Shown here one piece after another: positions 1 to 39,942 of a stretch of 64,000 nucleotides of DNA. This DNA is from Escherichia coli (lineage in GTDB: Bacteria; Pseudomonadota; Gammaproteobacteria; Enterobacterales; Enterobacteriaceae). A model generated the notes under the pieces. It was not told the origin of the DNA. It did not search any database and saw only the letters and a program-made list of their open reading frames with translations. Location: NCBI RefSeq assembly GCF_003991155.1, contig NZ_CP031294.1. The stretch is one strand, 5' to 3'. Position 1 is the first letter of the stretch, and each line of letters begins with the position of its first letter. Position numbers and translations under genes: made by a program.

Positions 1-1198
1 AAAGATTGTCGTTAATTACACATTTTATCTTAGAAATAAACTCAGATTCATTGTCCTTGAATGAGTCACTAAAAATATCCCAAACATTGTTAACCTCACA
101 TAAAGCCTTGTGTTCTTTATATTGTTTATTTTTTTCTTCTATTATACCTCGAATATTGCTTTCAGTAGAAAGATAACCATTCTTGAGATAAAAATCTATG
201 TCATCATCGAAAGCAATTTCCGCTCGTTCATAAATAATATCAAGACTATTAATAAATGAATATACAGAATCATCCTTTTTATCATCTAACATGTAATCAA
301 ATACATGTATGTTTTTAATTGATTCTTTAAACAAGGCATAATCAACACCTGGAACACCAGAATAGTAAACCACTGAAAACAGAACCAATCTATTGATAAA
401 ACTTTCTCTAACCTTATCCTCTGCCAAGCTTAGCTCATTCCTAAGATTAACCAGAGATGTTTTTATTTTATTTAATATACGGATATTTTTAATGCCTAAG
501 TCATTTGCTAAGACTTTTAACAAAAGAAAATCAGAATCAGTTTCATAAAAAACTTTACGTAAGTTCTTCTCAGGCGTAGGATCGTATTTTATTTCGACAT
601 CAATTACTTTTTCTCTGTACTCTAAAAACTGTTTTTTTGCAGTTTCATCATGTAAATTATCTTCATTTAAAATTAGAACAACTTTGCAACCTTTTCTTCT
701 TGCTAATTCATCAATTACCCCCATAATTTCTTTAACTTCTAGCGAATTACCTTTTCTTTCAACATCATCAATACAAACCAAATAATTATTAACAAATTTA
801 TACTCAAGAGATGACAGCAGGTTATCTGTTTTGAACCCAAAAAAATCGTTCTTTCCGAAATGTATTAAAAATTTTGACAAGGAGTTGTATTTCAACCATC
901 CCCAAAACCCATTTCTATAACGAATCATAGTTCGATCCGTTTCAGATAAAATTAGTTCTTTATATTTCTTTTCATTAATTGGTGTGGCACAATGATAAAG
1001 AGTTTTTTTAATATCACCAATAGAGTTAACCCCAAACAAAGAAACATACGAATATGCATTAAAATCTAATCCTTCAGAATGCTTAGTATAAAAACTATTC
1101 CAATAATGAGTTTTACCAACGCCCCAATCTCCTTTTATGACGGCAACCCGATGATCTGAAACTAGAAAATTTTTTAGAAATGATTCTATCGATTCCAT
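1..1198 (-). CDS. KAP-family-like P-loop NTPase, partial (3' end runs off the window start)
   Basis: Manual minus-strand translation from ATG at 1198: MESIESFLKNFLVSDHRVAVIKGDWGVGKTHYWNSFYTKHSEG...; GxWGxGKT Walker A as in KAP NTPases; no complete ORF in the track for 1-1200, consistent with a frame open to the edge; very AT-rich. Confidence 0.55.
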   Translation of the reverse strand, partial: MESIESFLKNFLVSDHRVAVIKGDWGVGKTHYWNSFYTKHSEGLDFNAYSYVSLFGVNSIGDIKKTLYHCATPINEKKYKELILSETDRTMIRYRNGFWGWLKYNSLSKFLIHFGKNDFFGFKTDNLLSSLEYKFVNNYLVCIDDVERKGNSLEVKEIMGVIDELARRKGCKVVLILNEDNLHDETAKKQFLEYREKVIDVEIKYDPTPEKNLRKVFYETDSDFLLLKVLANDLGIKNIRILNKIKTSLVNLRNELSLAEDKVRESFINRLVLFSVVYYSGVPGVDYALFKESIKNIHVFDYMLDDKKDDSVYSFINSLDIIYERAEIAFDDDIDFYLKNGYLSTESNIRGIIEEKNKQYKEHKALCEVNNVWDIFSDSFKDNESEFISKIKCVINDNL

Positions 1199-1220
1199 TA
1201 GTATCAATCCTTTAATTCAT

Positions 1221-1247
1221 ATATTGGGCGTAACAAACGCCCAATAT
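1221..1247. promoter_or_regulatory. 10-bp-stem inverted repeat (atattgggcg-N7-cgcccaatat) between the KAP-like gene start and the downstream end of the partition operon
   Basis: Perfect inverted repeat read directly; no U-tract on the minus strand, so terminator versus operator is unresolved. Confidence 0.35.
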
Positions 1248-1249
1248 AA

Positions 1250-1609
1250 TCAACCTTTCTTCATCAACTCTCGTTTAATTTCATCGGTACGCATCGTAAC
1301 GTCGGCAGCTGTGATCGCCTCGTTAAGCTTCACGATGTCCTCGATTTCCTGCGGTGACTTCTCTGCCAGATGGAAAATGGCTGCTCGAATCACGTCAGAA
1401 CGAGTGAACTTCTCGAAGCGAGGGATGAACTTCATCATCTCCAGCAGTTCGAAGTATTCGTCTTCCAGTGACATTGTGCGGCTTTTAATTTTCTCTTTGC
1501 CACGAGTCGGGCGTCCCTGTGGTCTGACTGGTTGGCGCAAAGGAGTTGTGTTCTTAGCCGGTGCATCAGGCTCTTTGCGCTTTGCTAGGTCACCCATTTT
1601 CATGGACAT
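1250..1609 (-). CDS. small basic protein downstream of parA; candidate centromere-binding partner (ParG/ParB-like), function not verified
   Basis: 119 aa ORF immediately after and translationally coupled to the ParA-type ATPase; basic N-terminus; position typical of type Ib partition operons. Confidence 0.4.
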   Translation of the reverse strand: MSMKMGDLAKRKEPDAPAKNTTPLRQPVRPQGRPTRGKEKIKSRTMSLEDEYFELLEMMKFIPRFEKFTRSDVIRAAIFHLAEKSPQEIEDIVKLNEAITAADVTMRTDEIKRELMKKG

Positions 1610-2277
1610 TATTCTTCTTCCTCCAGACTCAACAGATAATCTACAAATTCTTCAAACTCGGCTTCCGCCTTTTTGTCGCGCTCGTTACCGGTCATTTCAA
1701 AGATAGAACGACCAGACTCTTCCGCATCATCATAGACGTTGCGGTTATATAGATTGACTGGCGCAGACTCGATGCCAAACGTCTCAACAATCTCTTTAGC
1801 CGCCAGAATGCGAGACACTTGTGATGGCAAAGCCGGGCACTGGTTCATGACCGCGCGGACCTTCACTTTATCGTTTACATTACGAACATTGTCGATAATA
1901 GGATCAATGTCACGTAAAGATTTCAAATCACGACGCTTAGGACGCAGCGGGATAATGATAACGTCAGCCATCAGCATCGCTTGTCGCTGAATTTCGGAGT
2001 CGAAGCCACCAGCATCTACCACTACAAACTCAGCTCTACCCTGAAGCGATTTTAGGTGCTTAATGATGTCATCCTGAACGTATGCAAAAGGAATCAGCTC
2101 AAGGTCTTCGTTCTGTCGACGGTCTTCACACCAGCTCGTTGTCGTGCGCTGAATATCTATATCGGTAATATAAACCTTCTTCTTCTTTTTGACTTTCAGG
2201 CAAACGGCAATTTGCTGGGCAACGGTGGATTTGCCAGGCCCGCCCTTTGTGCCGCCAACCACAAAGATCTTGGTCAT
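1609..2277 (-). CDS. parA: ParA/Soj-family partition ATPase
   Basis: Deviant Walker A GGTKGGPGKST near N-terminus, ~220 aa, typical small ParA architecture. Confidence 0.8.
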   Translation of the reverse strand: MTKIFVVGGTKGGPGKSTVAQQIAVCLKVKKKKKVYITDIDIQRTTTSWCEDRRQNEDLELIPFAYVQDDIIKHLKSLQGRAEFVVVDAGGFDSEIQRQAMLMADVIIIPLRPKRRDLKSLRDIDPIIDNVRNVNDKVKVRAVMNQCPALPSQVSRILAAKEIVETFGIESAPVNLYNRNVYDDAEESGRSIFEMTGNERDKKAEAEFEEFVDYLLSLEEEE

Positions 2278-2453
2278 TGGAGAGTTCCCTTTGCGTATAT
2301 AATTATCGTCTGAAACAACTTGTTTTCTTATATGTGATATAGCCTAAATGCCTACGGCTGTGGTGTAAAGGTTAAATGGTAGGTGCTGCCTTAGAATTTT
2401 TAGGCGAGAATTAATGGCTGTTAACAAAAAAGGCGACCAAAGTCGCCTGATTT

Positions 2454-3206
2454 TTAATCTTTTAGGTATAAACCTACTGGAGTTCTTGTTTTGCGGGAGA
2501 TGATAAGTACGATAAATTTCTGAACGTTAACTTGCACTTTGTTTGGGAGCCAAGAGCTTAACTCTGCATCAAGCAACAATCCTCTGTTCCACGGCAAAAA
2601 TCCGGTTTCTTTCCCCATCCCGTACTCACCTAACACATCTTCGAACGTTTCTGTTTTGGCATTGTATATACGCACATCGCCGGTTCGCATGAGAGGCCCT
2701 GCCCAGATCTTAGCACCAGGAATGGTTTGTGTATCGTCGCAGACTAAATGCTCATACCAATGAAGAAGAAAGAGATAGGTACGGTGACACAATCCTCGCT
2801 GACGACGCTCTCTGACAGTTTCGACACCAGCTACCTGGTAACATTCGATCTCATTACCGTCTTCAACAAAACTATATTCACGCAGAGCTATCCTACCAGC
2901 GATCGTATTTTTGTTTTCGTCCAGAAGCCCGGACTGGAGCACCTCTTTGATAATCTCTTCTTCAGGGGCATCTTCATCCGCTCGATCTAAGATGAATTCG
3001 CTCAGGTCGCCTTGGTCGCGCGCACCTACACGTTCCATAGAGACATACAGGCAAATGTCATCTTCTGGTTCAATGATTTCAATTTCTGAGATTTTATAGA
3101 GGTAGGCTTCATTGATAAGAAAGCCAAAACGAACAACACGAGTCTCCCCTTTATGAGGAAACTCGCTTAGATCTTTTGAATATGCGCTATCTAGTGTAGG
3201 AGCCAT
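2454..3206 (-). CDS. hypothetical protein
   Basis: 250 aa ORF, no recognised motif. Confidence 0.45.
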   Translation of the reverse strand: MAPTLDSAYSKDLSEFPHKGETRVVRFGFLINEAYLYKISEIEIIEPEDDICLYVSMERVGARDQGDLSEFILDRADEDAPEEEIIKEVLQSGLLDENKNTIAGRIALREYSFVEDGNEIECYQVAGVETVRERRQRGLCHRTYLFLLHWYEHLVCDDTQTIPGAKIWAGPLMRTGDVRIYNAKTETFEDVLGEYGMGKETGFLPWNRGLLLDAELSSWLPNKVQVNVQKFIVLIISRKTRTPVGLYLKD

Positions 3207-3574
3207 TTTGTAGCAGAATCATCAGCCTTAACCGTGCTGACAATGCTACCATGATTGCGTAAGAAGCGGCGAATAGAATGTTCAATAACCTCCGAAAAAG
3301 CCTCGATAAAACGAGACAGCTCAGGGTACTGTTTAGCTGGCTTGACTACAAAACGAACACGACCATTCAGGTAAATTGCTTCAGCTAATGGCTTCACGCT
3401 TGCACCAGCGCGCTCAACATCGTCTTTGAAGGTAACGATGAAGCGTGAGTCTTCCGGTTCAATAGCGTCATTATTGAGCTTACGTACTTCAAGCTTGTGC
3501 TGATTCAGCACATGAGTCTCGATAATACTCGTGCAATCGCGAATAGTTTGTATAGAACGTTTCTCGTTCAGCAT
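3191..3574 (-). CDS. hypothetical protein
   Basis: 127 aa ORF overlapping the downstream gene by 16 nt. Confidence 0.45.
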   Translation of the reverse strand: MLNEKRSIQTIRDCTSIIETHVLNQHKLEVRKLNNDAIEPEDSRFIVTFKDDVERAGASVKPLAEAIYLNGRVRFVVKPAKQYPELSRFIEAFSEVIEHSIRRFLRNHGSIVSTVKADDSATKWLLH

Positions 3575-3798
3575 GTGTCCACCTTAGCCGTTAACACAAG
3601 TGTCATTGCGGCACCCCTCTCGGGGTTGAAGGCTACGAGGATGCGTAGCCTGTATGTGCCCACTTACGTGGATGCCTAATAAATCTACATCAAATTACTA
3701 AATGATTCAACATGAGCTTGAGTGAACAGGCGTGTATATGAGTGAAGATGCCATCTTTAGGATAAAAGGTAAACTGAGACCACTCATCAATCATCGCC

Positions 3799-5431: not shown

Positions 5432-8400
5432 TCAGTTACTTGTTGCCCCAACAGTACCTGCAAATTTCAGCCATTGACCTGACGGACTTCTATTACTACG
5501 GTAATGATAAACGAGGATTGCGTTTGTAACTCCACCGTAGTCAGCTTTATGTGACGTTGTTAAACGAATTGTATAATCACCGTTAGGTAGATTAAAAACT
5601 TCGATTATAGATTCTGCTAATTCTACAGCACCAAATCCCGTTATATTGTTGATACTGCCAGCATTGAATCCCATAGCATCGCCAAAGCCAATCCAATAAC
5701 TTTTGCTAAACGCCCCATTTGATTTTAGGTGGCTAATGAATGTGGACAAACTCATGCCCATATCCCCACCTGAAACAGAGGAAGTTCGCACAGTCATACT
5801 TGGAAGAGCACTGCTCTTCACATAGGAACTTAGAAGGTTTGTTACCTCTGTTTTCGTATAGGCATTAAGGTTAGCCGCAGTCAAAGTAATATCGGCAGAG
5901 CCATCAAACGCCACACCAGCAATTTTCCTTGCTGTCTGCAATTTTGTGGCAGTGGCAGCATTACCAGTAGTGTTCTGATTACCGGTTGTATTCACACCAG
6001 GTATTGAATCCTTAGCGGTATATACCTGCGCCCACGCAGACCATGCCGCATCAGTGGTATCTCTTCGGGAGCGAATGAAAACCGGCGCATGTGCACCGCT
6101 CGTACCACTCCAGCCAATAAGCAACTCGCCCTCACCAGCAGCACTCGCACCTTTCATGTGCAATACGTTGCCATACGTGGTCGGGTAGCTATTGCTGTAC
6201 GCCTCGTACATTTGAATGCCAGCAGTACCTTGAGCAGAACCGCTTAACGCCGTAACTCGGCCACGAGATACCAATGTATTAATGTTGATATCGCCTGAGC
6301 CATCAAACTTAACACCATTGATGTTTCTCGCTGTTTGCAACTTCGTAGCTGTTGAAGCATTACCGTTCAAACTACCATTTACGCCACCAGTCACATTTAG
6401 TCCATTACCAATTGATACAGCACCGCTGGTATTATTAATTGTAATAGGTCGCAAACCGTTCCATGAACCTAATGTGTCTCCTGATGCTGTTAGCATGAAA
6501 TATGTGTTCGATCCATCATTACGGATAAAGAACCCAAAGCTACCGTAAGCAATGCGGAAACCATTTGCATATTTTGAAATGATCTCGCCAGAAGATGTCA
6601 AACCTCCAGATAATGTACCACCGGTAAGAGGTAATGCACCGACATCAGAGGCTGTTGGTTTGTTTTTCGTGTTATATACTCTTCGCCATCCTGGAGAATA
6701 ATCTGTGCCATTAAATACATAGATAAACTCCGCATTAGTGAGAGCACCAGAGACACTCGTCGTTGTGGCCGTTGTTATACGGATCGTATAATTGTTTGAG
6801 CTACTACCGTTATTAAATACCTCTATAACAGCTCCTGCCAATGGAATAACGCCACAACCAGTTTCACTATTTGGTATGGTTGCACTATTGGCATAGGCCC
6901 ACGCACATCGAGCAATCCATGACTTTGTGTTAAATGCTCCATTATTTTGCAATAACGTCACTAACTGTGCTGTTGTTATTGCTCCGCCATTACTTCCTGT
7001 AGTTAACCAACCAGTAGGAGATGCCGGGCAACCTATATTTGCTGGCGACAAGGAAATATTTGCCGAGCCGTCAAACGACACCCCATTAATAGTACGCGCA
7101 GTCTGCAACTTCGTAGCAGTAGCCGCGTTGCCCGTTGTATTCTGATTACCAGTCGTATTAACACCTGGCAAATTAATATTCGCAGTACCATCAAAGCTCA
7201 CGCCGCCGATAGTTCTTGCCGTCTGAAGTTTTGTAGCAGTTGCAGCATTACCAGTGGTGTTCTGATTACCCGTAGTATTTACACCTGGAAGGTTGATATT
7301 TGCAGAACCGTCGAAACCAACTCCACCGATAGATCTTGCCGTCTGCAATTTCGTGGCTGTACTTGCATTACCATTCAATGAACCAGTTAATCCACCTGTA
7401 ACAGACAACGGACCTGAAACTGTTCCTCCGGTTGTTGGCAGTGCTCCAATATCTGATGGTGTAGGTTTCTGATGTGAGCTATACATCGTATAAACAACAC
7501 CATCGGTAACGCTGGAAGGCTTACTCGCTGAATATGTTGGCGAGGTATAAATAGAAACTGTCGCATTTGCAGTACAATCCCAATGGATATTTACACGAGT
7601 CGCATAATTGCCAATCTCAACGTAAATATCATATGTATCGCCGGATGTGTTGATCCAGGCGAAATTCGTTAATCCGACAGCTGTACGCTTCCACAAAGCA
7701 CCTGTAATCCCTTTGGGGTTTCCATTGCCTGCTCGTAGAACCAGTTCTGAAATGCCTGCCTGATGTGGGGAGCCGACGTTGTAACCAGCGCCACCAATCA
7801 ATGCGATGTAAACGATGGAACTCGCTTGTGGCATGGTAACCGTAGCCAGTTTGAACCACCCTGCCCCGCCAGAGAAAGACATCGTTACTGAATTTAAAGT
7901 ACCAATATCTTTCGGCGTTAATGTGATATCCGCAGTCAGTGCTTTACCGTTAACTTTTCGGTTAGATGGCACCCTGCTATTCGCATTGTCATTGGCTGCT
8001 TTAACTGCTTTTGGCGTTGCGGCCAGCGATTCACTGGTGCTGTCGACAGCACTGCTAAGTTTCACAACACCTTTAGTTGTAAGGCTTGCGTCTTCCATCG
8101 CAACTGCACCGGCAATCTCTTCAGCACGATCAGCAGCAGCTTCCGCACGGGTCGCAGCGGATTCAGCAGCAGTTTTGCTCTGAGATGCTGCCGTCGCACT
8201 GCCTGCCGCCTCTGTTGCTTTCGTGGATGCCGTCGTGGCACTGCCCTTCGCTGCTGACGCCTGTCTGGTCGCCTCATCTTTTGAAGCAGACGCAGATGAT
8301 GCCGATGACGCCGCCGAACTGGCGGACGATGCGGCAGCCGTTTTTGAGGATTCTGCGCTGGTTTCCGACGCTTTCGCGTTCGTTTCGGATGTCTTCGCTG

Positions 8401-9460
8401 CGGAAGCAGACCTCGCTGCTGCGCTGGCCTGTTCAGTGGCTTCGCCAGCCTTCGTTGTGGCTGTTGAAGCAGACGATGCGGCACTTTCTGCCGATTTTCC
8501 GGCGGCGGTGGCACTGGCTGAGGCCTGCCCGGCACTTGTTGACGCGGCACTGGCAGACGACGCAGCCGCTGTTTTTGAGCCTGCCGCAGCTGAGGCACTC
8601 TGTGCTGCTGCCGTCTCAGAAGACTTAGCGTTCGTCTCGGACGTTTTTGCCGCCTTCGCGGAATTGCCTGCCGCTGTTGCCGAGGAGGCTGCACTACTGG
8701 CGCTCAAGGATGCGTTCGTTTCTGATGATTTCGCTGCCTCTTTTGAGGCCGCCGCATCCCGGACTGAGGTGGCAGCTTCTGACGCTTTCGTGGTCGCGGT
8801 GGATGCAGAAGTGGCTGCTGATTGTTGTGACGCTGCGGCATTCGTTTCAGATTTTTTCGCAGCAGTTGCACTCGCACTTGCGGCACTTTGTGAGGATGCC
8901 GCAGCGGATGCACTTTGAGACGCTTGAGAGGCTTTTTCTCCAGCGGTATTGGCGCTTTCTGCTGCTGCGGCAGCACTGGCCGCCGCCTCACGAGCTTTGT
9001 CGCCAGCAGCATCAATCGCGTCAGTGTTATTTTTATACCACTCAACGTTTTCGTTGTGCTCGTTGACGATCTGCATTAGCGGCTTAACGGTTACTTCTGT
9101 ACCGTCTTCACGCTCGATTGTCACCTCATCCAGAGCAGTCAACCAACTGCGCATAGACTTGGAATCAGCCGACATACGCGACATTAGTGCTGTAAAGCGC
9201 GCGCTAAACTGTGTTAAGTCGCCTTCATAGGTCGTAATGATTCGGCACGGAACCTCAGACTGAGTTTCGCCGGTATAAGGTTCTGAGAGAACAATATTCG
9301 TATCGCTTATTACGCGCTTGATCTCATACAGCTTATTGTCGGGGCCAATGACGATCATCCCCGGCAACACACCATTAGCTGTTACGTTCCAGGCTGTCCC
9401 TGCCCCAACCAGAGTATTGCTACCCTGTGTAAATGTGATAGTACCTTCCCTGTACCACAT
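5432..9460 (-). CDS. phage tail fibre protein (long, Ser/Ala-rich linker, repeated GNAATATKLQTAR fibre repeats)
   Basis: 1342 aa; low-complexity A/S/T region; three or more tandem ~50-aa repeats containing GNAATATKLQTAR typical of phage fibre proteins; located downstream of J-like gene. Confidence 0.85.
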   Translation of the reverse strand: MWYREGTITFTQGSNTLVGAGTAWNVTANGVLPGMIVIGPDNKLYEIKRVISDTNIVLSEPYTGETQSEVPCRIITTYEGDLTQFSARFTALMSRMSADSKSMRSWLTALDEVTIEREDGTEVTVKPLMQIVNEHNENVEWYKNNTDAIDAAGDKAREAAASAAAAAESANTAGEKASQASQSASAAASSQSAASASATAAKKSETNAAASQQSAATSASTATTKASEAATSVRDAAASKEAAKSSETNASLSASSAASSATAAGNSAKAAKTSETNAKSSETAAAQSASAAAGSKTAAASSASAASTSAGQASASATAAGKSAESAASSASTATTKAGEATEQASAAARSASAAKTSETNAKASETSAESSKTAAASSASSAASSASSASASKDEATRQASAAKGSATTASTKATEAAGSATAASQSKTAAESAATRAEAAADRAEEIAGAVAMEDASLTTKGVVKLSSAVDSTSESLAATPKAVKAANDNANSRVPSNRKVNGKALTADITLTPKDIGTLNSVTMSFSGGAGWFKLATVTMPQASSIVYIALIGGAGYNVGSPHQAGISELVLRAGNGNPKGITGALWKRTAVGLTNFAWINTSGDTYDIYVEIGNYATRVNIHWDCTANATVSIYTSPTYSASKPSSVTDGVVYTMYSSHQKPTPSDIGALPTTGGTVSGPLSVTGGLTGSLNGNASTATKLQTARSIGGVGFDGSANINLPGVNTTGNQNTTGNAATATKLQTARTIGGVSFDGTANINLPGVNTTGNQNTTGNAATATKLQTARTINGVSFDGSANISLSPANIGCPASPTGWLTTGSNGGAITTAQLVTLLQNNGAFNTKSWIARCAWAYANSATIPNSETGCGVIPLAGAVIEVFNNGSSSNNYTIRITTATTTSVSGALTNAEFIYVFNGTDYSPGWRRVYNTKNKPTASDVGALPLTGGTLSGGLTSSGEIISKYANGFRIAYGSFGFFIRNDGSNTYFMLTASGDTLGSWNGLRPITINNTSGAVSIGNGLNVTGGVNGSLNGNASTATKLQTARNINGVKFDGSGDININTLVSRGRVTALSGSAQGTAGIQMYEAYSNSYPTTYGNVLHMKGASAAGEGELLIGWSGTSGAHAPVFIRSRRDTTDAAWSAWAQVYTAKDSIPGVNTTGNQNTTGNAATATKLQTARKIAGVAFDGSADITLTAANLNAYTKTEVTNLLSSYVKSSALPSMTVRTSSVSGGDMGMSLSTFISHLKSNGAFSKSYWIGFGDAMGFNAGSINNITGFGAVELAESIIEVFNLPNGDYTIRLTTSHKADYGGVTNAILVYHYRSNRSPSGQWLKFAGTVGATSN

Positions 9461-16828: not shown

Positions 16829-19800
16829 TTAGTTACGTTGAGTGTTTGGGTTGAGTGATCCGCCAGGGCGTTTCTCTTGAGCGATAGTCTCAAGCGCGAT
16901 TGCTTTCATCCGTTGAGCGGCATTGTTCCATATGCTTTCTGTATCGCCGGATTCAGTTGTGCTACCGTCACTATGGACGTTGATCTCAATTGATACAGGA
17001 GAAAGAACATTTCCTCCTCCACTCATACCATCGGTACTGAGCGTTACAGGGATTGTTCGACCATCAGGCAATGGAACATACGCCTCATTCATATCGCCTT
17101 CCCCAAACAACGCCAATTGAGGTGAGTTGGCGATACCGCCTTTCTGGTATGCCCGGAGCGGGATCACGCCGTCTTTTCCGAATATGCCACCATTTGCAAA
17201 CTTCGGAATTGCAGGAATACCATTCGTGCCATCGGCAGCAGAACTGGTCAGATTGTTGAACCCGGAAGTTGAGCCAGAAGAACCGGACATCAATCCATCG
17301 AATCCACCACCAGCCCATACTGAAACCAAACCAGATGCAACTGTCGCGCCGAAATTCAACCACTTATTACCAGAGCCGGAAGCATTAGCTCCAAGCATTG
17401 CAAACGCGGCAGACAGAGCGCCGGTAACAGAGCTGAGGTTCTGCATCGAGAAGATGGAGTCCTTCACTGCTTTTGTCTCAGCATCTTTGGCTTCGGTGCT
17501 ATTAAATAGCCCTGATACCCAGCTACCAATCGCATTTGTTGCTGTGCCAATTGCGCTGGTGGTCTGCTGTGTCGTTTGCCCCAATCCAGTTACCGAACTG
17601 GACGTCTCCTTCGTGGCTTCTCCTACCGACTTGTCGCCATTAACAGTGTTGCTTATGCGCACACCTTGATTGGCAACTGCGGAAGCAACCCCGGTGAGCA
17701 AATTACCACTCTGTGAACTACCAGCTGCGGTGGTTCCCATCCCCAACATGTTCATTAGAGGCAGCGTGATCTGCGACTTCACGACCATATTGGTGATATC
17801 TTTCAAAATGGACTGAGATAGGCTGGAGAAGCTCATCTTCCCGTTAATAACGAAATCAGTCAGGACATCAGTTAAGCCACTAAACAAATCAGTCCAGGTG
17901 CTTTCGATCTGCTCTGCCAGATTTTCGTATTCCAGTGCCAACTTCTGCGTCGCAGTCCCCGTCTCTTTAATAAGCGCGGTATTGCCAGCAGCAATCAGTT
18001 GATTGATTTTCTTTGTATAAAGCGCCACAACTTTAGGATCAGACGCCTTATCACGAAGTTCTATCAACGCTTTGAGATTGCGGTTGTAGGTGTCTTCGAA
18101 ATCAGCAACTTTCTCTTCGCGAGACGGCGTATAGCCAGCACTAATAATGGAATCCGCCTCCGGTGCCCAAGTGGAGATCATCTGCTCAACATTGCGGCGA
18201 TTAAACATCTCACGATATTCAGGTGTCGCATTTTTGAGGTCTTCAAGACGTTTTTTCGCCTTGTCGATCATCTCTTGAGTGATGAACTCGTTAGGAACCG
18301 CATTAGCCAAATCTGTCAGCGATTTCGTTGTATCGCGAAGAGACTGATCAAACGATACCGTAGCCTTAGAGCTTTCACCCATTTGCCCCATAAGCTGATC
18401 GGCTTTGTCCAGAGCCTTCTGGTATCCGGCTGCCAGTTTCTGTTGCGCTGCCTGTTCCTTCTTGGCCGCACGCTGCGAGGCGTTAGCTGATCGTTGGGCT
18501 GCTTTCTCGGCAGCTGCTGCATCCTGTTCACGAGCTTTAGTAAGTGCGGCAATGGCTGCGGCACGCTCTTCATCGCTCATTTTCTCCAGAGAGCTGGCAC
18601 TGGATGCTTTCTGCAAATTAAGCTGCGTCTTGAGTTGTTTAGGCCCAATAATCGGCTTACCTTCGAAGTCCATCATCGGAGTGCCGTCAGGCAAAGTACG
18701 CTGATAAGTCGCAGAATCCATCTGGTTTCGCATATATTGCGCCAACGCCTTCTGAGCAGCTTTATCAGTTGTACCTAACCCAAGAACAGTCCCCTGGTTT
18801 GACATTACGCCCTTACCAGTTTTGGCCGCGTTATCTCTCTCGAACTCTGCCTGAGTAAGTTCCTGAGCAACGGCTTCCAAATGCTCCTGATAACCACGAA
18901 TACTGCCTTGCAGTTTCTGGATTTGCTCGGTATTGCCATCCTTTTTGGCTTTTTCAAGCTGATCATTAAGAGTCGCGATTTGCTTCTCGGTCGCATTCTT
19001 ACGAGAAGAAAGTGAATCAACCAGTTTTTGCGCAGGCTCCAGATAGCTTTTGTTTACCGTTTCACGTAACGGTGCCAATAGCTTGTTCTTTTCGTCATCT
19101 GAAAGTGAACCGTCATCATTGATTTTCTGGATCTTATCCAGAGCCTCCTGCCGGGCTTTCACGAATGTTGCCGCGAAAATCTGGTTTTCCGCTCGAATTT
19201 TCTCAATCTGAGATTCGGCAGCCTCTTTAGCCAAACGCTTTGCTACAGCGCCGTCACCAAGAGCTATCGTGCCGGTTATCTTTTGATACTCTTCCTGATT
19301 TTTTTTCAGGCGTGCTTCGATGTCAGCCTTCGACTCTTTGTGAGTAATAACACCGGCAGAGTTAGATACGTAATTAACACCCTCACCAGTTTTTAATGCT
19401 CGTTGATCAGCAAGAATCTGCTTTTCGAGCTTTTCTGCGCGGTCGGCCATTTGTGCACGTTTGGCCGCCGTCATCGCCTCTGGTATTTTCCTAATCTCGT
19501 CAACGACCTTTGAAGTTTCGCTGCGGAGCATGGTCATGTACGTGATTAGGCCAGCAACAGCTACAGTGGCAACTGTAAATGCTGCCCCTATAGGGTTTGC
19601 TGCAATGAACGCCGTTAATCCAGCAAAAGCGCCTTTAAGCCCCGTAATCGCCCCACGGATGGCGAAAATAAGAGAGGGGATCGGAGCCAGCCCCATACGT
19701 GCCGCACGATTGAATCGGGTTACTGCTGTAGCGCCGAGGTTAAATGGAGTCTGTATGGCGGTCGCCATCGTGGCAAAGGTGCTAACCATCTGGCTGCCTG

Positions 19801-32301: not shown

Positions 32302-33192
32302 TTATGCCGGTAAAGCAATTTCTAACGGTTTATCCAAAGGTTGTTTGTCGAATGCCAGCAGTGGCAGCGTGTCAGGCAGTCGACGGCCAAAGTCAGGGTT
32401 TCGGTACACACCATACAACGGAGACGTAAAGCTCAGGTTGTGAATGTCCTTGAGCAGCTTCACAATGCTGGCCTCGTCCACCAGACTGTCGGCAATGTCC
32501 TGAATCGTCGTGCCACGATTCCGCCCAGCTTTTGCCAGGGAACTGTTCTTATGGTAGTCCGCCACCAAATCGCGCAGCGCACGGCGACGACGAGACTCGC
32601 TCATAGCGAACAACTCTTTGACGATCGCCTCGTTATCACCCGGGTCGGAGCGGAAATGGCGCTGGAACACACGCAGTGCACTTTCATAGCTCTTCGGTCG
32701 CTCAGGGCGGATGAACTTAAACCCTGCTTTCATGGCGAAGGGATTGTATTTGCTCATCGAGGACTGGATCTCAATGATTGGCCGGTCATGCATCCTGCTA
32801 ACCAGGTTAATCATTCTATAAGAGACGCCTACGCCACGATACTGAGTATCCACAACTGAGCGACTGATCACCGCAAAGTTGTTATTCACGTACCGACCCC
32901 AGTACTGGTTAGCCACGGTGGTATTAGTGGTTGGTTTCAACTTAGGAAACATGCGGTGGCGAGGTGCCAACAGTAGTTTCGGGTAAGCCATAACCACGAC
33001 GCCCACCAGACGGTCATCAAGTTCGCAGCGATAGTAAGTTGGCGCGAAAGGTTTGCCGTCTGTTTTGTAGTGAAGCGACTTAAGAGCGTGCCAGTCCTCT
33101 ACAGTTCCCTTTGTAACAGTCATTCGCTCCAGAAAGTCCAGATGACGCGGAAACTCTTCAGGGCGGTAGCGTTTAATGATGATGTCCGTCAT
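32302..33192 (-). CDS. GNAT-like acyltransferase-domain protein (tentative)
   Basis: 296 aa; central QYRGVGVSYRMINLV resembles GNAT acetyl-CoA motif A, followed by KAGFKFI. Confidence 0.35.
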   Translation of the reverse strand: MTDIIIKRYRPEEFPRHLDFLERMTVTKGTVEDWHALKSLHYKTDGKPFAPTYYRCELDDRLVGVVVMAYPKLLLAPRHRMFPKLKPTTNTTVANQYWGRYVNNNFAVISRSVVDTQYRGVGVSYRMINLVSRMHDRPIIEIQSSMSKYNPFAMKAGFKFIRPERPKSYESALRVFQRHFRSDPGDNEAIVKELFAMSESRRRRALRDLVADYHKNSSLAKAGRNRGTTIQDIADSLVDEASIVKLLKDIHNLSFTSPLYGVYRNPDFGRRLPDTLPLLAFDKQPLDKPLEIALPA

Positions 33193-33854
33193 GAATGGAC
33201 CTCATCATGACTACCATTGTGATATTCCACCTTCACGCGTTCTTTGTAGTGCTTGGTGATCTGCATATCAGGGCGCAGCGCGTTCTTCAGGTCTTCGTGA
33301 GTCGTCGCCACCATTACCGTCGCACCAACCTTTCGAGCGGCACGCTGGAGGTTAGACGCCACAACCTGAGCGGTTACACGGTCGAGAACAGCGCCGAACT
33401 CGTCAGCAGCCCATACTTTAGCGCCTGACTCAATCAGTTTGGCAATCTTGAGACGATATTTCTGGCCGTCTGACATTTCAGAAGGCTTGCGAACAAACAG
33501 ATATGCATCGTTCAGACCAGCCATAGATAACAACCCAAGCGCATCACTGGTCGTTTTGCCCAACTGATCGATGACGTTAACCTCATTATCGAAGGTAAAA
33601 TCATCGATGGAGGCTACAGACAGCCCTTCATCCTTCATCTGTCGTTGCAACTCGCGCAGCACAACGGATTTGCCGGAACCGGATTGGCCGGTGATGTACA
33701 CCACATCGCCCTGCTTCACTTCCAGCTCCAGATTGTCGTAAAGCGTCCACTCTTTTTCGTCCAGGCCAAGCCCGAACGACTCAGCGATTTCCAACGTGCG
33801 CGTGGTTTTATTTACGCGTGTCTGAAACGATACGTTGATGATGTATTTGCTCAT
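33189..33854 (-). CDS. small ABC-type ATPase (nucleotide-binding domain only)
   Basis: Walker A GQSGSGKS, ABC signature LSDGQKYR, Walker B VWAADEFGAVLD, H-loop TTHE. Confidence 0.7.
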   Translation of the reverse strand: MSKYIINVSFQTRVNKTTRTLEIAESFGLGLDEKEWTLYDNLELEVKQGDVVYITGQSGSGKSVVLRELQRQMKDEGLSVASIDDFTFDNEVNVIDQLGKTTSDALGLLSMAGLNDAYLFVRKPSEMSDGQKYRLKIAKLIESGAKVWAADEFGAVLDRVTAQVVASNLQRAARKVGATVMVATTHEDLKNALRPDMQITKHYKERVKVEYHNGSHDEVHS

Positions 33855-34519
33855 GCAGCCATCTCCCCGGAAGAGATCTTCTCCGCATATGCCACAAATG
33901 CGTCTACCCCGCTTTCTCCCGTCATTTCTTCCATATGGGCAAGCAAATCACCAACAACAATGGCAGAGCCAGCAGGGAGCGTTTTAAAGCCCAATACGTC
34001 GACAACACGTACTTCTTCCGCTGCAACTTCACGACTGATCTCGGTGTGTTCATCCTTCTGTCGTTTAGTTTCTTCGCCAAGATCGATAACTAGCGAGTCG
34101 GTGTCCATTTCTTCTGTCATACTGCCAACGAGAACATTCAACTCACGCTCTTCAAAGCCGAAAACCTCGATATCGTCCAGAACAAGCGACTCAAGCTCTT
34201 TCTGTAGCTTAATTGCATCGTAATCAATGCTGGCAAGTCGGTTATCTTCAAGGCGCTTCGCACGAACCTCGTCATCACTGAGATCATCGCGAACAATAAC
34301 CGGTACGCGCTCAAGTCCAGCAAAAATTGCAGCCTCACGGCGGCCGTGGCCAGTAATAATTACGTCGTTCTTATCGACCGTAATTGGCTGGTCAAATCCG
34401 CGCTTTTTAATGGCTGCGGCTAGATCTCGGATCTGCTGTTCATCATGCTTTTTGGCATTCATCTCATAGGGAATAAGATCTGCCGGGTCGCGATATACGA
34501 TTTCAAACTTTTTGGTCAT
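33851..34519 (-). CDS. ParB/Srx-fold domain protein 2
   Basis: Start at ATG overlapping upstream stop (TAATG); ParB N-domain-like QPITVDKNDVIITGHGRREAAIFAGLERVPVIV. Confidence 0.65.
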   Translation of the reverse strand: MTKKFEIVYRDPADLIPYEMNAKKHDEQQIRDLAAAIKKRGFDQPITVDKNDVIITGHGRREAAIFAGLERVPVIVRDDLSDDEVRAKRLEDNRLASIDYDAIKLQKELESLVLDDIEVFGFEERELNVLVGSMTEEMDTDSLVIDLGEETKRQKDEHTEISREVAAEEVRVVDVLGFKTLPAGSAIVVGDLLAHMEEMTGESGVDAFVAYAEKISSGEMAA

Positions 34520-35217
34520 TACATACGCTCCTTGTAGTAGTCGACCAGCCACACCAGAGCCTCACCAGCGTTCTCCATTTCATTACCGGTGTTAATAGCC
34601 TGCTCTTTGATGATGTTTTTTATGGTTTCTGCAACACGATCTGACGCATCGAAAGTTACTTTGAAGCGCATGGTCTGATGTTCCGCACCCACACGTTCGG
34701 TTTTCTCTCGTTTGTCGGTATCGACAGGCTCATCACTACCACGAGACAACGCCTCCAGTGCTTCAAGGTCGATTGCCGCCTCTTTTGCTAAAACCATCGA
34801 GATTTCGTCGTCATACGGAGCGATTTCAGACAGTTGATAGTCAAGTTCTGACTGAATTTCTTCAATGAAGCGTTGCAATGCGATTTGGTCGTCTTCACCG
34901 TATCGCTCGTTGTCCACCAGTGACATCTGTTTAGCTACGACATCGCTAATTTTGCCCACAGAAAGCACCGGAACCGTTGAAATTCCTTGCTCAATAGCAG
35001 CACGCCAGCGATGTTCGCCGCCGAGGATTTCAAAAAATCCATCTTCAAGTTCACGAGCCAAAATTGGCTTAAAAAAGCCCAATTTTTCGATAGAACCTTT
35101 CAGTTTTTCAAAATTCTGCGCACCAACCGAATTGGTGTTCCAGGTATTCGGGCGAAGGTTGGCAACATCAACCTGCAAAATCGTGATTTTTACATCCATT
35201 TTATTGCTACAATCCAC
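34519..35217 (-). CDS. ParB/Srx-fold domain protein 1
   Basis: ParB N-domain-like segment FEILGGEHRWRAAIEQGISTVPV. Confidence 0.65.
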   Translation of the reverse strand: MDCSNKMDVKITILQVDVANLRPNTWNTNSVGAQNFEKLKGSIEKLGFFKPILARELEDGFFEILGGEHRWRAAIEQGISTVPVLSVGKISDVVAKQMSLVDNERYGEDDQIALQRFIEEIQSELDYQLSEIAPYDDEISMVLAKEAAIDLEALEALSRGSDEPVDTDKREKTERVGAEHQTMRFKVTFDASDRVAETIKNIIKEQAINTGNEMENAGEALVWLVDYYKERM

Positions 35218-37148: not shown

Positions 37149-37613
37149 ATGAAGTCTCCCATACTGTTCACTTTCTGTTCTAAAACTATCATGAAATACT
37201 CGCTTCTCCCTCTACTAACGTTACCAGTGTTGATGCTTGCCGCGTGCCAATCACACCCAATATCAATCCATGACGCCAAACCAGCACCGCAGGCCAAAGT
37301 GTTCAAGTATCAAAGCGCAGCGCCAGCTACGTTGGTGGTAATGAGAGACACAGGTTTTGTAGGAGCTGGATGTGATGCTTCCATTTTCATCAACGGCGAA
37401 ACTGTCGCAAAACTGGCTACAGGCGAAAAAGCGACTTTCCATTTAAATGCCGGAGAATTAATTGTGGGTGCATCTCTTGAAGGTGCAGGTTTATGTGCTC
37501 TAAACCCCGCTCGTCAAGAGCGAGAAACGACTCTGAAGAATGGAGACACAAAAGCGTTCAGGGTGTTTACCAGCAATTCTGGTGACATCGACATTCTGCC
37601 AACAACTCTGTGA
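37149..37613 (+). CDS. putative lipoprotein
   Basis: Signal peptide with lipobox-like LAAC (MKYSLLPLLTLPVLMLAAC). Confidence 0.55.
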   Translation: MKSPILFTFCSKTIMKYSLLPLLTLPVLMLAACQSHPISIHDAKPAPQAKVFKYQSAAPATLVVMRDTGFVGAGCDASIFINGETVAKLATGEKATFHLNAGELIVGASLEGAGLCALNPARQERETTLKNGDTKAFRVFTSNSGDIDILPTTL

Positions 37614-37617
37614 TGAC

Positions 37618-38142
37618 ATGACAACCAAAGATATTACCTACGGTATCCAAGCTGAACTCTGGCCGCGAGATTACACTAACGTTGAAAAACTACTGATGTT
37701 CTGGCGCAGAGAACAAATTCCTGTAAGGGTCACTCTCGAAGATGGCCAGGCGTTTTGCATGTACGTTTATGGCCTCATGCCATCTCGTAACAAAGTTGAC
37801 CTTTGCCCAGCCCCTTTTGACAAAGAAAATCGTATAAGGCTCCCACTTGAACGCATTAGTACAATTGAATCAGGTGTGGTTGACAGTATCGCTCACGATT
37901 TCAAAGGTCGACTAACAGTTCACCCTGATTATGTCGATAATCGGCCATCACGCCGCGATTTTTTTGCAATTTGCAACCAAGCCTACAAAGCAAACAAATC
38001 TATAAGGGTGTACATGGCGGATGGCCGTGAAATTGAGGGGGTGTCAGCAGGCGCAGATGCTTGTCAGGTTACACTACGTGTCGAGAACGGTAGAAAAATA
38101 GTTGTTTTGTTCGATTGGGTTGAACGAATTTTGCCTTTTTGA
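37618..38142 (+). CDS. hypothetical protein
   Basis: Start set at in-frame ATG just after upstream stop; ORF track 37540..38142. Confidence 0.4.
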   Translation: MTTKDITYGIQAELWPRDYTNVEKLLMFWRREQIPVRVTLEDGQAFCMYVYGLMPSRNKVDLCPAPFDKENRIRLPLERISTIESGVVDSIAHDFKGRLTVHPDYVDNRPSRRDFFAICNQAYKANKSIRVYMADGREIEGVSAGADACQVTLRVENGRKIVVLFDWVERILPF

Positions 38143-38145
38143 GTT

Positions 38146-38454
38146 ATGAAATCGATATTGTTACCACCATTATTTTTACTTTGCTCAGTTGCGGCAAATG
38201 CAATGGACTATAAGCCTGTCATTCAGTCGCTGATGAATGACGTGTGCTCAACGTCTCAGAATGTATCAGTTTGCATGTATCAATTTTCGGCAGCCGTAAA
38301 AGCAGGAAAAGCGATAGGCGAGAATGTGGAACTGTGTAAGAAAGTGGCAAATGAAGAACGGGCAATGTTGGATTGCGAATCTAGCGAGTCATCGGCACAG
38401 TTCGTTGATGCGCTATTTGACACCAATCGTAAGGCTGTAGAGTCTGTTCAATAA
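38146..38454 (+). CDS. small secreted protein (signal peptide)
   Basis: MKSILLPPLFLLCSVAANA signal-peptide-like N-terminus; 102 aa. Confidence 0.5.
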   Translation: MKSILLPPLFLLCSVAANAMDYKPVIQSLMNDVCSTSQNVSVCMYQFSAAVKAGKAIGENVELCKKVANEERAMLDCESSESSAQFVDALFDTNRKAVESVQ

Positions 38455-38645
38455 ATCTATAAGGTTAATAACCGGCTAAGTCCGGTTATTATTTTTCACA
38501 TCACTTCTTTATATCTACAAATCAAATAACCTAAATATATATAAGGTCTAAAGCCGCAATCAATTATTTATTTAGGGAACACCTTCGACGATCTCGCTTT
38601 TATTTCTAGGACTTTCATCCCTGCAAAAAATTTAAAAAAAAACAC

Positions 38646-38673
38646 TTGCAATCTTTTTTCGCATATCGATAAT
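38646..38673 (+). promoter_or_regulatory. sigma70-like promoter candidate (TTGCAA-N16-GATAAT) preceded by A-tracts
   Basis: Hexamers read directly upstream of the 38739 operon; not validated. Confidence 0.4.
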
Positions 38674-38738
38674 TGAACTCGTCGAAAGCGAAGACGCTAA
38701 CGACAATAAATTTTAAATTTACATAAGGAAAAATTATC

Positions 38739-39389
38739 ATGGCTAACATTATCATTTCTAAAAAATCCATCATTGAAGCTGCTTCCATTGTATCCGATGA
38801 ACTGCGCGAAAAAGCAGATCTGGCAACTCAAACATATAACGAACATTATAAAAATGGTACGCACACTAAAGCAGACAAAGCAAATATGCAAGCTGCGACC
38901 ACTAAACTTGCTTACTTCATCAACAACGTCGTAAACGCAGTAGAAGACGAAAAATTATGCTCTGTTTTCTACTATGCGATTAAAGCAAGCAAACAAGCGC
39001 CAGAAGTATTTTTCCGTGATGCAATGACTAATAGTTATTCTCTGGAAAAACTGGTTTATCTGGTTAAATCAATTAAATCTGGTAAATGCGTTTATTCCAT
39101 CGCTGATATGTCTGGATCTCGTGTATTCGCTTTAATCGATATGATTAACGACGAGATCGACACGTTCACTAATGGCGCTGTTTTCGATTTAATGAATGAA
39201 GCTAAAAAAGCGTGTGAAATTAAATTGGACGCTGGTTATACTCAAGCCAACCAGTTGATCAATCTTTGCGAACGTCTTGGACTTGTTGAAAAAGTCAAAG
39301 GAGCTGGGAGCGCGAAAGCTGGTACTCAGCAATATCGCTTCATTAAAAATGATTTCTACAATTATTTAGCTGATGCTTTCAAAGCGTAA
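38739..39389 (+). CDS. hypothetical protein (AT-rich)
   Basis: 216 aa ORF with upstream promoter candidate and downstream hairpin. Confidence 0.55.
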   Translation: MANIIISKKSIIEAASIVSDELREKADLATQTYNEHYKNGTHTKADKANMQAATTKLAYFINNVVNAVEDEKLCSVFYYAIKASKQAPEVFFRDAMTNSYSLEKLVYLVKSIKSGKCVYSIADMSGSRVFALIDMINDEIDTFTNGAVFDLMNEAKKACEIKLDAGYTQANQLINLCERLGLVEKVKGAGSAKAGTQQYRFIKNDFYNYLADAFKA

Positions 39390-39437
39390 TTAATGGAATC
39401 AAGCGCCCACTATGGGCGCTTTAAAGGAGCTTTGAAA

Positions 39438-39641
39438 ATGGTCAGCTATGACAAGATCCGCGCGGAATATCGCGCAAAGTATCGCGCTTATAAACTAGAA
39501 TTAATCGATGATTTAATCGCGCAACGCGACCAATTAAATTTTACGTTTTCTGATTTGCTTAACAGCAAGCGAGATTGCAAGCGCAAACGTGAATACTTAC
39601 GTTTAAGCGCATTAATCGGAAAACTTCAAAATTCTATTTAA
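39438..39641 (+). CDS. small hypothetical protein
   Basis: Start at ATG preceded by AAAGGAG; ORF track version starts inside the upstream hairpin. Confidence 0.35.
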   Translation: MVSYDKIRAEYRAKYRAYKLELIDDLIAQRDQLNFTFSDLLNSKRDCKRKREYLRLSALIGKLQNSI

Positions 39642-39661
39642 TTTTTTTAAGGAGCTTAATC

Positions 39662-39892
39662 ATGTTTGTTCTTATCGCTGGCGTTAACGTCCATAACGAA
39701 TATTATGTTAATCGCATCGCTGGGATCGCTGGTTACGCTGGGCGCGCAGTCGAGTTTATCGATGAAACAACGCGTAAAATTGATTTATTGAGCGACCAGG
39801 AGCGAAAAAAAGCAGACGTGAACGACGCTGATATATTTTTAATGTTAAAAGCGTTTGTAGAAATGGGATTTAAAATCAGTTTACACAAATAA
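39662..39892 (+). CDS. small hypothetical protein
   Basis: 76 aa, SD AAGGAG upstream; followed by two tandem terminators. Confidence 0.4.
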   Translation: MFVLIAGVNVHNEYYVNRIAGIAGYAGRAVEFIDETTRKIDLLSDQERKKADVNDADIFLMLKAFVEMGFKISLHK

Positions 39893-39897
39893 AATCG

Positions 39898-39925
39898 AGC
39901 GCCCACTATGGGCGCTTTTTTCGTT
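39898..39925 (+). terminator. intrinsic terminator (gagcgcccac-tat-gggcgct + T-run); same hairpin also at 39401-39422
   Basis: Stem-loop and T6 run read directly. Confidence 0.7.
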
Positions 39926-39942
39926 TCCAATACTTCCACAAT

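What the first reader, a model, noticed from the sequence alone, without database searches (positions are those of the whole stretch)
1250..2277. Plasmid-type partition module next to siphovirus genes - possible phage-plasmid lifestyle
A small ParA with a deviant Walker A and a downstream small basic protein form a type Ib-like partition operon in the same element as tail and head genes. No integrase is seen in 64 kb. That combination fits elements maintained as low-copy plasmids in the lysogenic state.
Basis: inference. Interest (0 to 1): 0.45.

Follow-up and report, generated by a model that had tools for sequence, protein, structure and literature searches.

The report
Partition genes of SSU5-type phage-plasmid

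Summary

- **The genes:** window 1609-2277 (-) encodes a 222-aa ParA with the deviant Walker A KGGPGKST. Its best solved relative is ParF of TP228, the type Ib archetype. Window 1250-1609 (-) overlaps it in TAATG. It encodes a 119-aa basic protein (pI 9.6) that has no family assignment.
- **The element:** the window is 99.96% identical to 32001-95981 of a circular 110,667-bp IncFIB E. coli plasmid of the SSU5/pHCM2 phage-plasmid group.
- **Location:** the par module occurs in 263 of 5426 complete E. coli genomes. All 264 copies are on plasmids and none is chromosomal.
- **Integrase:** a tyrosine recombinase does exist, 14.6 kb outside the window. It does not contradict plasmid maintenance.
- **Centromere:** no classical parS repeat array was found. 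A ~75-nt promoter block upstream of parA is far better conserved than neutral sites and is the centromere/operator candidate.
- **Side result:** the palindrome in that block (AAAACAAGTTGTTT) recurs at about 13 other promoters. It belongs to the phage backbone, not to ParB.

The parts
1609..2277 (-). parA: 222-aa ParA/ParF-type Walker ATPase. It has the deviant Walker A KGGPGKST (residues 11-18), an A' motif DIDIQ and a Walker B motif VVVDAGG. There is no N-terminal HTH domain.
   Evidence: ORF. Pfam MipZ, AAA_31, CbiA and ParA. PDB ParF 4dzz at 1.4e-10. NCBIfam NF041546 ParA_partition at 115.8 bits, below the cut-off of 180. PHROG 164. Motifs are invariant across 8 relatives down to 40% identity. 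dN/dS about 0.04.
1250..1609 (-). parB-like gene: a 119-aa centromere-binding-protein candidate. It has an invariant N-terminal MGDLAK(R/K) peptide, a variable linker, a basic arm (PQGRPTRGK), a predicted ribbon-helix-helix core (strand 44-48, helices 50-60 and 70-82) and two further C-terminal helices.
2341..2369 (-). Putative par promoter: -35 TTTACA (2364-2369), a 17-nt spacer, and -10 TAGGCT (2341-2346).
   Evidence: Read from the sequence. The same hexamers and spacing recur in diverged relatives L010, L013, L014, L016 and L020. The consensus scanner did not report it, because the -10 matches only 3 of 6. This is an inference, not mapped.
2341..2384 (-). Conserved non-coding block that overlaps the promoter. 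It is the best candidate for the ParB-binding centromere/operator. It contains TAGGCATTTAGGC (2342-2354) and ACC boxes at 2378-2380, 2370-2372 and 2362-2364, in 8-bp phase.
   Evidence: About 2-3 differences in 73 nt between the window and Salmonella or Klebsiella relatives (alignment). Synonymous sites of the adjacent genes are saturated, with dS 1-2. Homology starts here and ends at the parB stop. The 12-mer TAGGCATTTAGG occurs a second time just downstream of parB in SSU5. The box phasing is a post-hoc reading. No tandem array was found by TRF.
2312..2327 (-). Palindrome GAAAACAAGTTGTTTC, about 14 nt downstream of the -10. It is an operator-like site shared with about 13 other promoters of the element. 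It is not ParB-specific.
   Evidence: 21 matches at 3 mismatches or fewer in the window, against 1.3 expected. Each site is 18-75 nt upstream of a gene start. The arms are invariant and the spacer varies in diverged relatives. It is retained in pMT1, which lacks this ParAB. It is absent upstream of the same ParAB family on non-SSU5 backbones.
2431..2448 (-). Intrinsic-terminator-like hairpin plus T-run, ending the upstream 250-aa gene. It would insulate the par promoter from read-through.
   Evidence: Terminator scan; sequence.
1220..1248 (-). Perfect 12-bp inverted repeat (TATATTGGGCGT-N5-ACGCCCAATATA) directly after the parB stop. It may be a terminator stem without a T-run. It is specific to this lineage.
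   Evidence: the repeat finder I24. Not conserved in relatives.

Best explanation
This is the active-partition cassette of an SSU5/pHCM2-type phage-plasmid. The prophage replicates as a low-copy circular plasmid of about 110 kb.

The proposed mechanism is as follows. One promoter (-35 TTTACA, -10 TAGGCT) drives parA and the translationally coupled small gene. The 119-aa protein dimerises through a ribbon-helix-helix core. It binds the conserved block that overlaps this promoter, and so marks the plasmid and autoregulates the operon. ParA-ATP dimers coat the nucleoid. The partner's invariant, disordered N-terminal peptide (MGDLAK-R/K) stimulates ParA's ATPase. The resulting ParA gradient moves sister plasmids apart, as in ParF/ParG of TP228.

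What is shown: the gene identities, the predicted RHH fold, the operon synteny, purifying selection, the constrained upstream block, and exclusive plasmid location.

What is inferred: the DNA site bound, ATPase stimulation, autoregulation and the stabilising effect.
For: - **ParA:** ParF-like, with all NTPase motifs.
- **Synteny:** parA and the small gene are adjacent in every locus, down to 40% identity.
- **Selection:** dN/dS is 0.04-0.06.
- **Upstream block:** about 97% conserved where dS is 1-2. Homology stops exactly at the parB stop, so the cassette is promoter block plus two genes.
- **Location:** 264 of 264 E. coli copies are on plasmids.
- **Host replicon:** circular IncFIB with Rep3-type RepA.
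- **Relative:** Cyrano is a 5.5-copy plasmid that produces virions, and the small gene is expressed in lysogens.
Against: - No partition assay exists for this module, as far as I could find.
- No iterated parS array was found.
- The RHH fold rests on a model of an artificial tandem fusion with a shallow alignment of 11 sequences. Foldseek gave no significant hit.
- The small protein has no detectable sequence similarity to ParG or omega.
- ParA scores below the NCBIfam equivalog cut-off.
- At 5.5 copies per cell, together with the toxin-antitoxin genes annotated on related plasmids, partition may add only part of the stability.
Confidence: 0.85

Rival explanations
1. The element is an integrating prophage. 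The window simply misses its integrase and att site, and the ParA pair is a relic.
For: A tyrosine recombinase of the Phage_integrase family lies 14.6 kb outside the window on the same replicon. A preprint reports S. Agona chromosomes that carry an integrated plasmid with an SSU5-like repB/parA region but no phage structural genes.
Against: None of the 264 copies in complete E. coli genomes is chromosomal. The records that match the window are closed circles with RepA. Both par genes are under strong purifying selection. Cyrano was measured as a 5.5-copy plasmid.
Confidence: 0.02
2. The small gene is a RelE/ParE-type toxin, as annotated in phage Cyrano, and ParA is an orphan ATPase.
For: Cyrano CYRAN_29, which is 100% identical to the window's 119-aa protein, is labelled 'RelE/ParE putative toxin' and is listed among lysogen-expressed genes.
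Against: There is no Pfam, NCBIfam or PADLOC hit to any toxin family. The predicted fold is beta-alpha-alpha RHH plus helices, not the RelE alpha/beta fold. One third of the protein is a disordered basic tail. It is always paired with ParA and never with an antitoxin gene.
Confidence: 0.03
3. The pair is mainly a regulatory or positioning device with another target. Two versions are possible: an RHH repressor with a MipZ/MinD-like ATPase acting on host division, or a global regulator of phage genes like KorB/IncC or omega/delta.
For: PGAP names some orthologues 'division plane positioning ATPase MipZ'. The par promoter carries a palindrome shared with about 13 other promoters. RHH partition proteins such as omega are also global repressors (my knowledge).
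Against: The MipZ match covers only the shared N-terminal NTPase part, and ParF scores equally well over the whole length. The palindrome persists in pMT1, which has no homologue of either protein. It is missing upstream of the same ParAB family on other backbones. Its binder is therefore not this protein.
Confidence: 0.05
4. The cassette is intact but redundant. Stability comes from copy number, multimer resolution and toxin-antitoxin systems, and par contributes little.
For: Cyrano has 5.5 copies per cell and several TA pairs. The slots that flank the par module are variable and hold TA or defence genes.
Against: The genes and their promoter block are strongly conserved across genera, with dN/dS about 0.04 and the block about 97% identical. 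The module is retained in 253 near-full-length copies in E. coli alone.
Confidence: 0.05

Closest known systems
ParF/ParG partition system of plasmid TP228 (type Ib)
   Same: ParA is small, has no HTH domain and carries the deviant Walker A. It aligns to ParF over residues 9-200 at E 1.4e-10. The partner is small, with a flexible basic N-terminal tail and a predicted RHH dimer core. The operon order is ATPase then adaptor. The candidate binding region lies upstream and overlaps the promoter.
   Different: The partner has no detectable sequence similarity to ParG. It is longer (119 aa against 76) and has two extra C-terminal helices. No array of tetramer boxes like parH could be shown. ParA falls below the NCBIfam ParA_partition cut-off.
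SSU5 / pHCM2 / pLF82 (Cyrano) phage-plasmids
   Same: The par module is 86% identical in nucleotides to SSU5 and 98% to Cyrano. The gene order is the same: tail fibre, lysis genes, par, helicase, primase. The element is a circular IncFIB replicon of about 110 kb.
   Different: Only the accessory slots on either side of the par cassette differ. Here they hold a KAP-type NTPase downstream and two unknown genes upstream. Cyrano has KacT/antitoxin there.
delta/omega of pSM19035 and VirC1/VirC2 of Ti plasmids
   Different: There is no sequence similarity to omega. Unlike omega, the small protein here does not appear to own the dispersed operator sites.
P1 ParA/ParB and N15 SopA/SopB (type Ia systems of other phage-plasmids)
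   Same: They play the same biological role: active partition of a plasmid prophage.
   Different: Type Ia ParA is about 400 aa with an N-terminal HTH, and its ParB carries ParB_N and HTH domains. Here ParA is 222 aa and the partner has no ParB_N domain. The related plasmid pMT1 uses a P1-type pair instead.

Membership tests
Type Ib (ParF/ParG-like) plasmid partition systems | Small Walker-type ParA (about 190-310 aa) with the deviant Walker A KGGxxK[ST] and no N-terminal HTH domain | tested here: met
   222 aa, with KGGPGKST at residues 11-18. ParF 4dzz at 1.4e-10 over residues 9-200. Motifs are invariant in relatives.
Type Ib (ParF/ParG-like) plasmid partition systems | ParA reaches the curated NCBIfam equivalog score for 'ParA family partition ATPase' (NF041546) | tested here: not met
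   115.8 bits against a cut-off of 180. It is the best-scoring family by far, but this ParA is a diverged lineage.
Type Ib (ParF/ParG-like) plasmid partition systems | Small centromere-binding partner with a ribbon-helix-helix dimer fold, encoded directly downstream | tested here: met
Type Ib (ParF/ParG-like) plasmid partition systems | Flexible N-terminal tail of the partner that stimulates ParA ATPase through a basic residue | not testable with these tools
   The sequence is consistent with this. MGDLAK(R/K) is invariant, and residues 1-25 are predicted disordered. The activity itself is untested.
Type Ib (ParF/ParG-like) plasmid partition systems | Centromere of iterated short repeats upstream of parA that overlaps the promoter | tested here: inconclusive
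   No tandem array was found. A constrained 44-75 nt block overlaps the promoter, and its 8-bp-phased ACC/GGC boxes were read post hoc. A second TAGGCATTTAGG copy flanks the operon in SSU5 only.
Type Ib (ParF/ParG-like) plasmid partition systems | Stabilises an otherwise unstable replicon | not testable with these tools
   I found no published assay for this module.
SSU5/pHCM2 phage-plasmid group | Collinear nucleotide homology to known members | tested here: met
   99.96% identity over 64,000 nt to NZ_OW849379.1. Hits to SSU5, Cyrano and Klebsiella phage-plasmids.
SSU5/pHCM2 phage-plasmid group | Maintained as an extrachromosomal replicon with its own initiator | tested here: met
   264 of 264 places are on plasmids and none is chromosomal. 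The record is circular and IncFIB, with Rep3-type RepA. RepA lies outside the window.
SSU5/pHCM2 phage-plasmid group | Complete set of siphovirus structural and lysis genes; virion production | tested here: met
   The genes are present by annotation. Virions are shown only for the relative Cyrano, not for this copy.
RelE/ParE toxins (label given to the small gene in Cyrano) | RelE/ParE domain or fold | tested here: not met
   No Pfam, NCBIfam or PADLOC toxin hit. The predicted fold is RHH plus helices.
MipZ division-site ATPases (PGAP name of some orthologues) | Full-length match to MipZ | tested here: not met
   The Pfam MipZ match covers only residues 4-132, aligned to profile positions 2-150 of 262. 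ParF aligns over the whole protein. All copies are on plasmids, next to an RHH partner.
Type Ia (P1 ParAB / F SopAB) partition systems | Large ParA with an N-terminal HTH; ParB with ParB_N and HTH domains | tested here: not met
   ParA is 222 aa with the Walker A at its N-terminus. The partner has no ParB_N domain.

The most novel reading that the evidence does not exclude
The par promoter is wired into a phage-wide regulon. A 14-16 bp palindrome (AAAACAAGTTGTTT) sits about 14 nt downstream of the -10 of parA. It also sits at about 13 other promoters in the window, and there are 18 sites on the whole plasmid. These promoters include those of the small-terminase/late operon, the helicase, the primase and nrdB.

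The palindrome probably serves as the dispersed operator of the prophage's master repressor, in the way C1 operators work in P1. The best candidate repressor is the 128-aa HTH protein next to the integrase.

If this is right, partition-gene dosage is tuned by the lysis-lysogeny switch. That link has not been described for type Ib systems. Separately, the 119-aa partner would define a very small, unannotated RHH centromere-binding family (PHROG 5111).
Probability: 0.35. Interest if true: 0.4.

Novelty: already known. Interest (0 to 1): 0.15.

Why it matters
SSU5/pHCM2-type phage-plasmids are common in E. coli, Salmonella, Klebsiella and Shigella, and some carry resistance genes. How they are inherited therefore matters for surveillance and for curing strategies. 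That they are plasmids with a ParA gene is established.

This check adds three modest points:
- **The partner gene:** it is unannotated, or mislabelled as a toxin, and is most likely the RHH centromere-binding partner.
- **The cassette:** the mobile unit is exactly the promoter block plus the two genes.
- **Regulation:** the promoter shares an operator-like palindrome with the phage's lytic promoters.

None of this changes the known picture of these elements.

Tried and rejected
- **parS repeat arrays:** I searched around the operon with the repeat finder and TRF and found none. The downstream region is not conserved at all.
- **The palindrome at 2312-2327 as the ParB site:** I first took it for the ParB operator. 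I rejected that for three reasons. It is dispersed over the element. pMT1 keeps it although it lacks both proteins. It is absent upstream of the same ParAB family on other backbones.
- **Sequence identification of the 119-aa protein:** this failed everywhere. The only hint was a sub-threshold NCBIfam hit to the archaeal RHH regulator aCcr1.
- **Exhaustive HMM search:** the family is tiny, with 18 representatives among 1.84 billion proteins, so no link to an annotated family emerged.
- **Consensus promoter scan:** it missed the conserved promoter.
- **Palindrome and lysogen expression:** I compared palindrome-bearing promoters in Cyrano with the published list of lysogen-expressed genes. The overlap is only partial: par, 101-102 and 108-109. 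The direction of regulation therefore stays open.
- **Rfam and tRNA scans of the window:** both were empty.

Full report
**Observation.** The finding's coordinates are exactly two minus-strand ORFs. One is a 222-aa protein at 1609-2277. The other is a 119-aa protein at 1250-1609. The stop of the first overlaps the start of the second in TAATG. The first protein begins MTKIFVVGGTKGGPGKST, which is the deviant Walker A of ParA/MinD ATPases placed at the very N-terminus. It hits Pfam MipZ, AAA_31, CbiA and ParA, PHROG 164 'ParA-like partition protein' and NCBIfam ParA_partition. The NCBIfam score is 115.8 bits, below the curated cut-off of 180. Its best solved relative is ParF of TP228, the type Ib archetype, at E 1.4e-10 over residues 9-200. 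The second protein is basic, with pI 9.56 overall and 11.4 for residues 1-45.

**What the element is.** Plasmid records match window 1-3600 at 100% identity, and phage records match its par module at up to 99%. The whole window aligns at 99.96% to positions 32001-95981 of NZ_OW849379.1. That record is a circular 110,667-bp, non-mobilizable IncFIB plasmid of E. coli. Its annotation shows a full siphovirus set: tail fibre, tape measure, capsid, portal, terminase and lysis genes. It also shows a large replication and nucleotide-metabolism set, a Rep3-type RepA, and a tyrosine recombinase with a divergently placed HTH regulator. RepA, the recombinase and the HTH regulator all lie outside the window. 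The par module is 86% identical to that of Salmonella phage SSU5 and 98% identical to that of phage Cyrano, also called pLF82. SSU5 is a reference phage-plasmid (PMC7969092). Cyrano was measured at 5.5 copies per cell and produces siphovirus particles (PMC9928086).

**Plasmid or chromosome.** The 1139-nt module occurs in 263 of 5426 complete E. coli genomes. All 264 places are on plasmids and none is on a chromosome. The 'site-specific integrase' on the same replicon (record 17344-18447; Pfam Phage_integrase) means the statement 'no integrase' holds only for the window. With no integrated copies, a role in multimer resolution is the more likely one. That is my inference, by analogy with Cre of P1. 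A preprint notes S. Agona chromosomes with an integrated plasmid that carries an SSU5-like repB/parA region but no phage structural genes.

**The small protein.** It has no Pfam, PDB, PADLOC or convincing NCBIfam match, and PHROG 5111 has no assigned function. An exhaustive profile search found only 18 representatives among 1.84 billion proteins. Alignments show four features:
- an invariant N-terminal G(D/G)L(A/G)K(K/R) peptide;
- a variable linker;
- a basic arm;
- a stretch I(K/R)SRTxS(L/M)E(D/E)E ... (T/S)RSDV(I/F)RAA.

The last stretch reads like the strand, helix A, turn and helix B of ribbon-helix-helix repressors.

**Operon conservation.** I examined eight diverged loci, in which the partner is down to 40% identical. 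These were Klebsiella and other phage-plasmids of about 107-110 kb and three unrelated contigs. In every one the small gene directly follows a 221-229-aa ParA. On SSU5-type backbones the pair always sits between the lysis cassette and the helicase-primase genes. dN/dS is 0.04-0.06 for both genes, and dS reaches 1-2 against SSU5 and pJN2-26.

**Cis elements.** Homology between lineages begins about 107 nt upstream of the parA start and ends at the parB stop codon. The mobile cassette is therefore the promoter block plus the two genes. The flanks are variable slots. The block from 2312 to 2384 differs at only 2-3 of 73 positions between E. coli, Salmonella and Klebsiella versions, although neighbouring synonymous sites are saturated. 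It is therefore functionally constrained.

Comparison with deeper relatives identifies a shared promoter: TTTACA at 2364-2369, 17 nt of spacer, and TAGGCT at 2341-2346. No tandem or iterated parS array was detected. The remaining conserved bases include TAGGCATTTAGGC and three ACC boxes in 8-bp phase. The phasing is a post-hoc reading. In SSU5 the 12-mer TAGGCATTTAGG occurs again just after parB. This block is my candidate for the centromere/operator, with low confidence in the details.

**A palindrome that is not parS.** The most deeply conserved element is GAAAACA-N2/3-TGTTTTC at 2312-2327. Its arms are invariant and its spacer varies. It is not specific to par. The window has 21 matches at 3 mismatches or fewer, against 1.3 expected. 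That amounts to about 14 sites, each 18-75 nt upstream of a gene start and about 14 nt after a -10-like hexamer. The whole plasmid has 18 sites against about 1 expected. Cyrano has them before the small terminase, parA, helicase, primase, nrdB and many small genes. Yersinia pestis pMT1 uses a P1-type ParAB and has no homologue of either protein here, yet it keeps six sites at homologous promoters. Loci with the same ParAB family on other backbones lack the palindrome. So the binder is a backbone regulator. The best candidate is the 128-aa HTH 'putative repressor' next to the integrase. This is an inference. Published lysogen expression overlaps only partly with palindrome-bearing promoters, so I cannot say whether the site represses or tunes par.

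**Mechanism.** The best-supported reading is a type Ib-like, ParF/ParG-style partition machine. The RHH dimer would bind the promoter block, mark the plasmid and autoregulate the operon. Its N-terminal basic peptide would activate nucleoid-bound ParA-ATP. The resulting ParA gradient would separate sister plasmids. The shown steps are gene identity, predicted fold, synteny, selection, the constrained upstream DNA and exclusive plasmid location. The inferred steps are the DNA site, ATPase stimulation and the stabilising effect. I found no experimental partition assay for this module.

**Verdict.** The sequence is essentially identical to deposited plasmids. SSU5's ParA is already annotated as a partition protein. 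Novelty is therefore 'already known' and interest is low. The small additions are the likely RHH identity of the unannotated or mislabelled partner, the exact limits of the cassette, and the shared operator-like palindrome that links the par promoter to the phage's other promoters.

Noticed in passing
window 2313, 31870, 31896, 38094, 41012, 41497, 42247, 43151, 43635, 44829, 46269, 46320, 59087, 59816 (14-mers): A dispersed palindrome, AAAACAAGTTGTTT, at 2 mismatches or fewer. It lies about 14 nt after a -10-like hexamer and 18-75 nt before gene starts. The window has 21 matches against 1.3 expected, and the full plasmid has 18 sites. The sites lie before the late/terminase operon (a double site), parA, and clusters of small genes. 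In Cyrano they also lie before helicase, primase and nrdB. pMT1 retains the palindrome. It looks like the operator set of a phage master regulator. A full-text search for SSU5, phage-plasmid, repressor and operator together returned no paper.
   Followed up: partly
window 1-1198 (-), continuing beyond the window start: The 3' part of a 564-aa KAP-family P-loop NTPase gene. It matches the PADLOC candidate defence family PDC-S49 at 5e-22. It occupies the variable slot just downstream of parB. Cyrano and SSU5 hold unrelated genes in that slot.
   Followed up: partly
window 2388-3600 and 1-1249: Mosaic break points lie exactly at the edges of the par cassette. Different plasmid lineages share either the left flank or the right flank with the window. 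In Cyrano the upstream slot holds a KacT toxin and its antitoxin. Here it holds two genes of unknown function (PHROGs 3307 and 2594). Both sides of par look like accessory-gene hot spots.
   Followed up: partly
window 33189-35217 (-): Two adjacent ParB_N (ParB/Srx) domain proteins plus an ABC-type ATPase, between the terminase region and a DEAD-box helicase. They are conserved in pMT1 and Cyrano. They are not the partner of the small ParA, and their role is unknown.
   Followed up: no
NZ_OW849379.1 16963-18447 (outside the window): A tyrosine recombinase ('site-specific integrase', 367 aa) overlapping tail-to-tail with a 128-aa HTH protein. Cyrano calls that protein the putative repressor. The pair is conserved in pMT1. 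No integrated copies were seen in E. coli.
   Followed up: partly
L006 (SSU5) 2472-2483 and 3592-3603: The 12-mer TAGGCATTTAGG from the par promoter block occurs a second time 19-30 nt downstream of the parB stop in SSU5. pJN2-26 has the same copy with one mismatch. This recalls centromere sites that flank the operon, as in pB171 par2. The window has no such second copy.
   Followed up: partly
window 46418-56894: A cargo block inside the phage-plasmid: metG (methionyl-tRNA synthetase), apbC/Mrp-type ATPase, an S24 peptidase (UmuD/LexA-like, 129 aa), DNA polymerase III theta, and a complete type I restriction-modification system hsdM-hsdS-hsdR (annotation).
   Followed up: no
window 1220-1248: A perfect 12-bp inverted repeat with a 5-nt loop directly after the parB stop. 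It has no T-run and is not conserved in relatives.
   Followed up: partly
window 5432-9460 (-): The tail-fibre ORF is 1342 aa here, but the otherwise near-identical plasmid record annotates a shorter CDS (37432-41016). The alignment of the window to that record carries a 19-nt length difference. The protein has a long Ala/Ser-rich stretch and repeated NTTGNAATATKLQTAR units.
   Followed up: no
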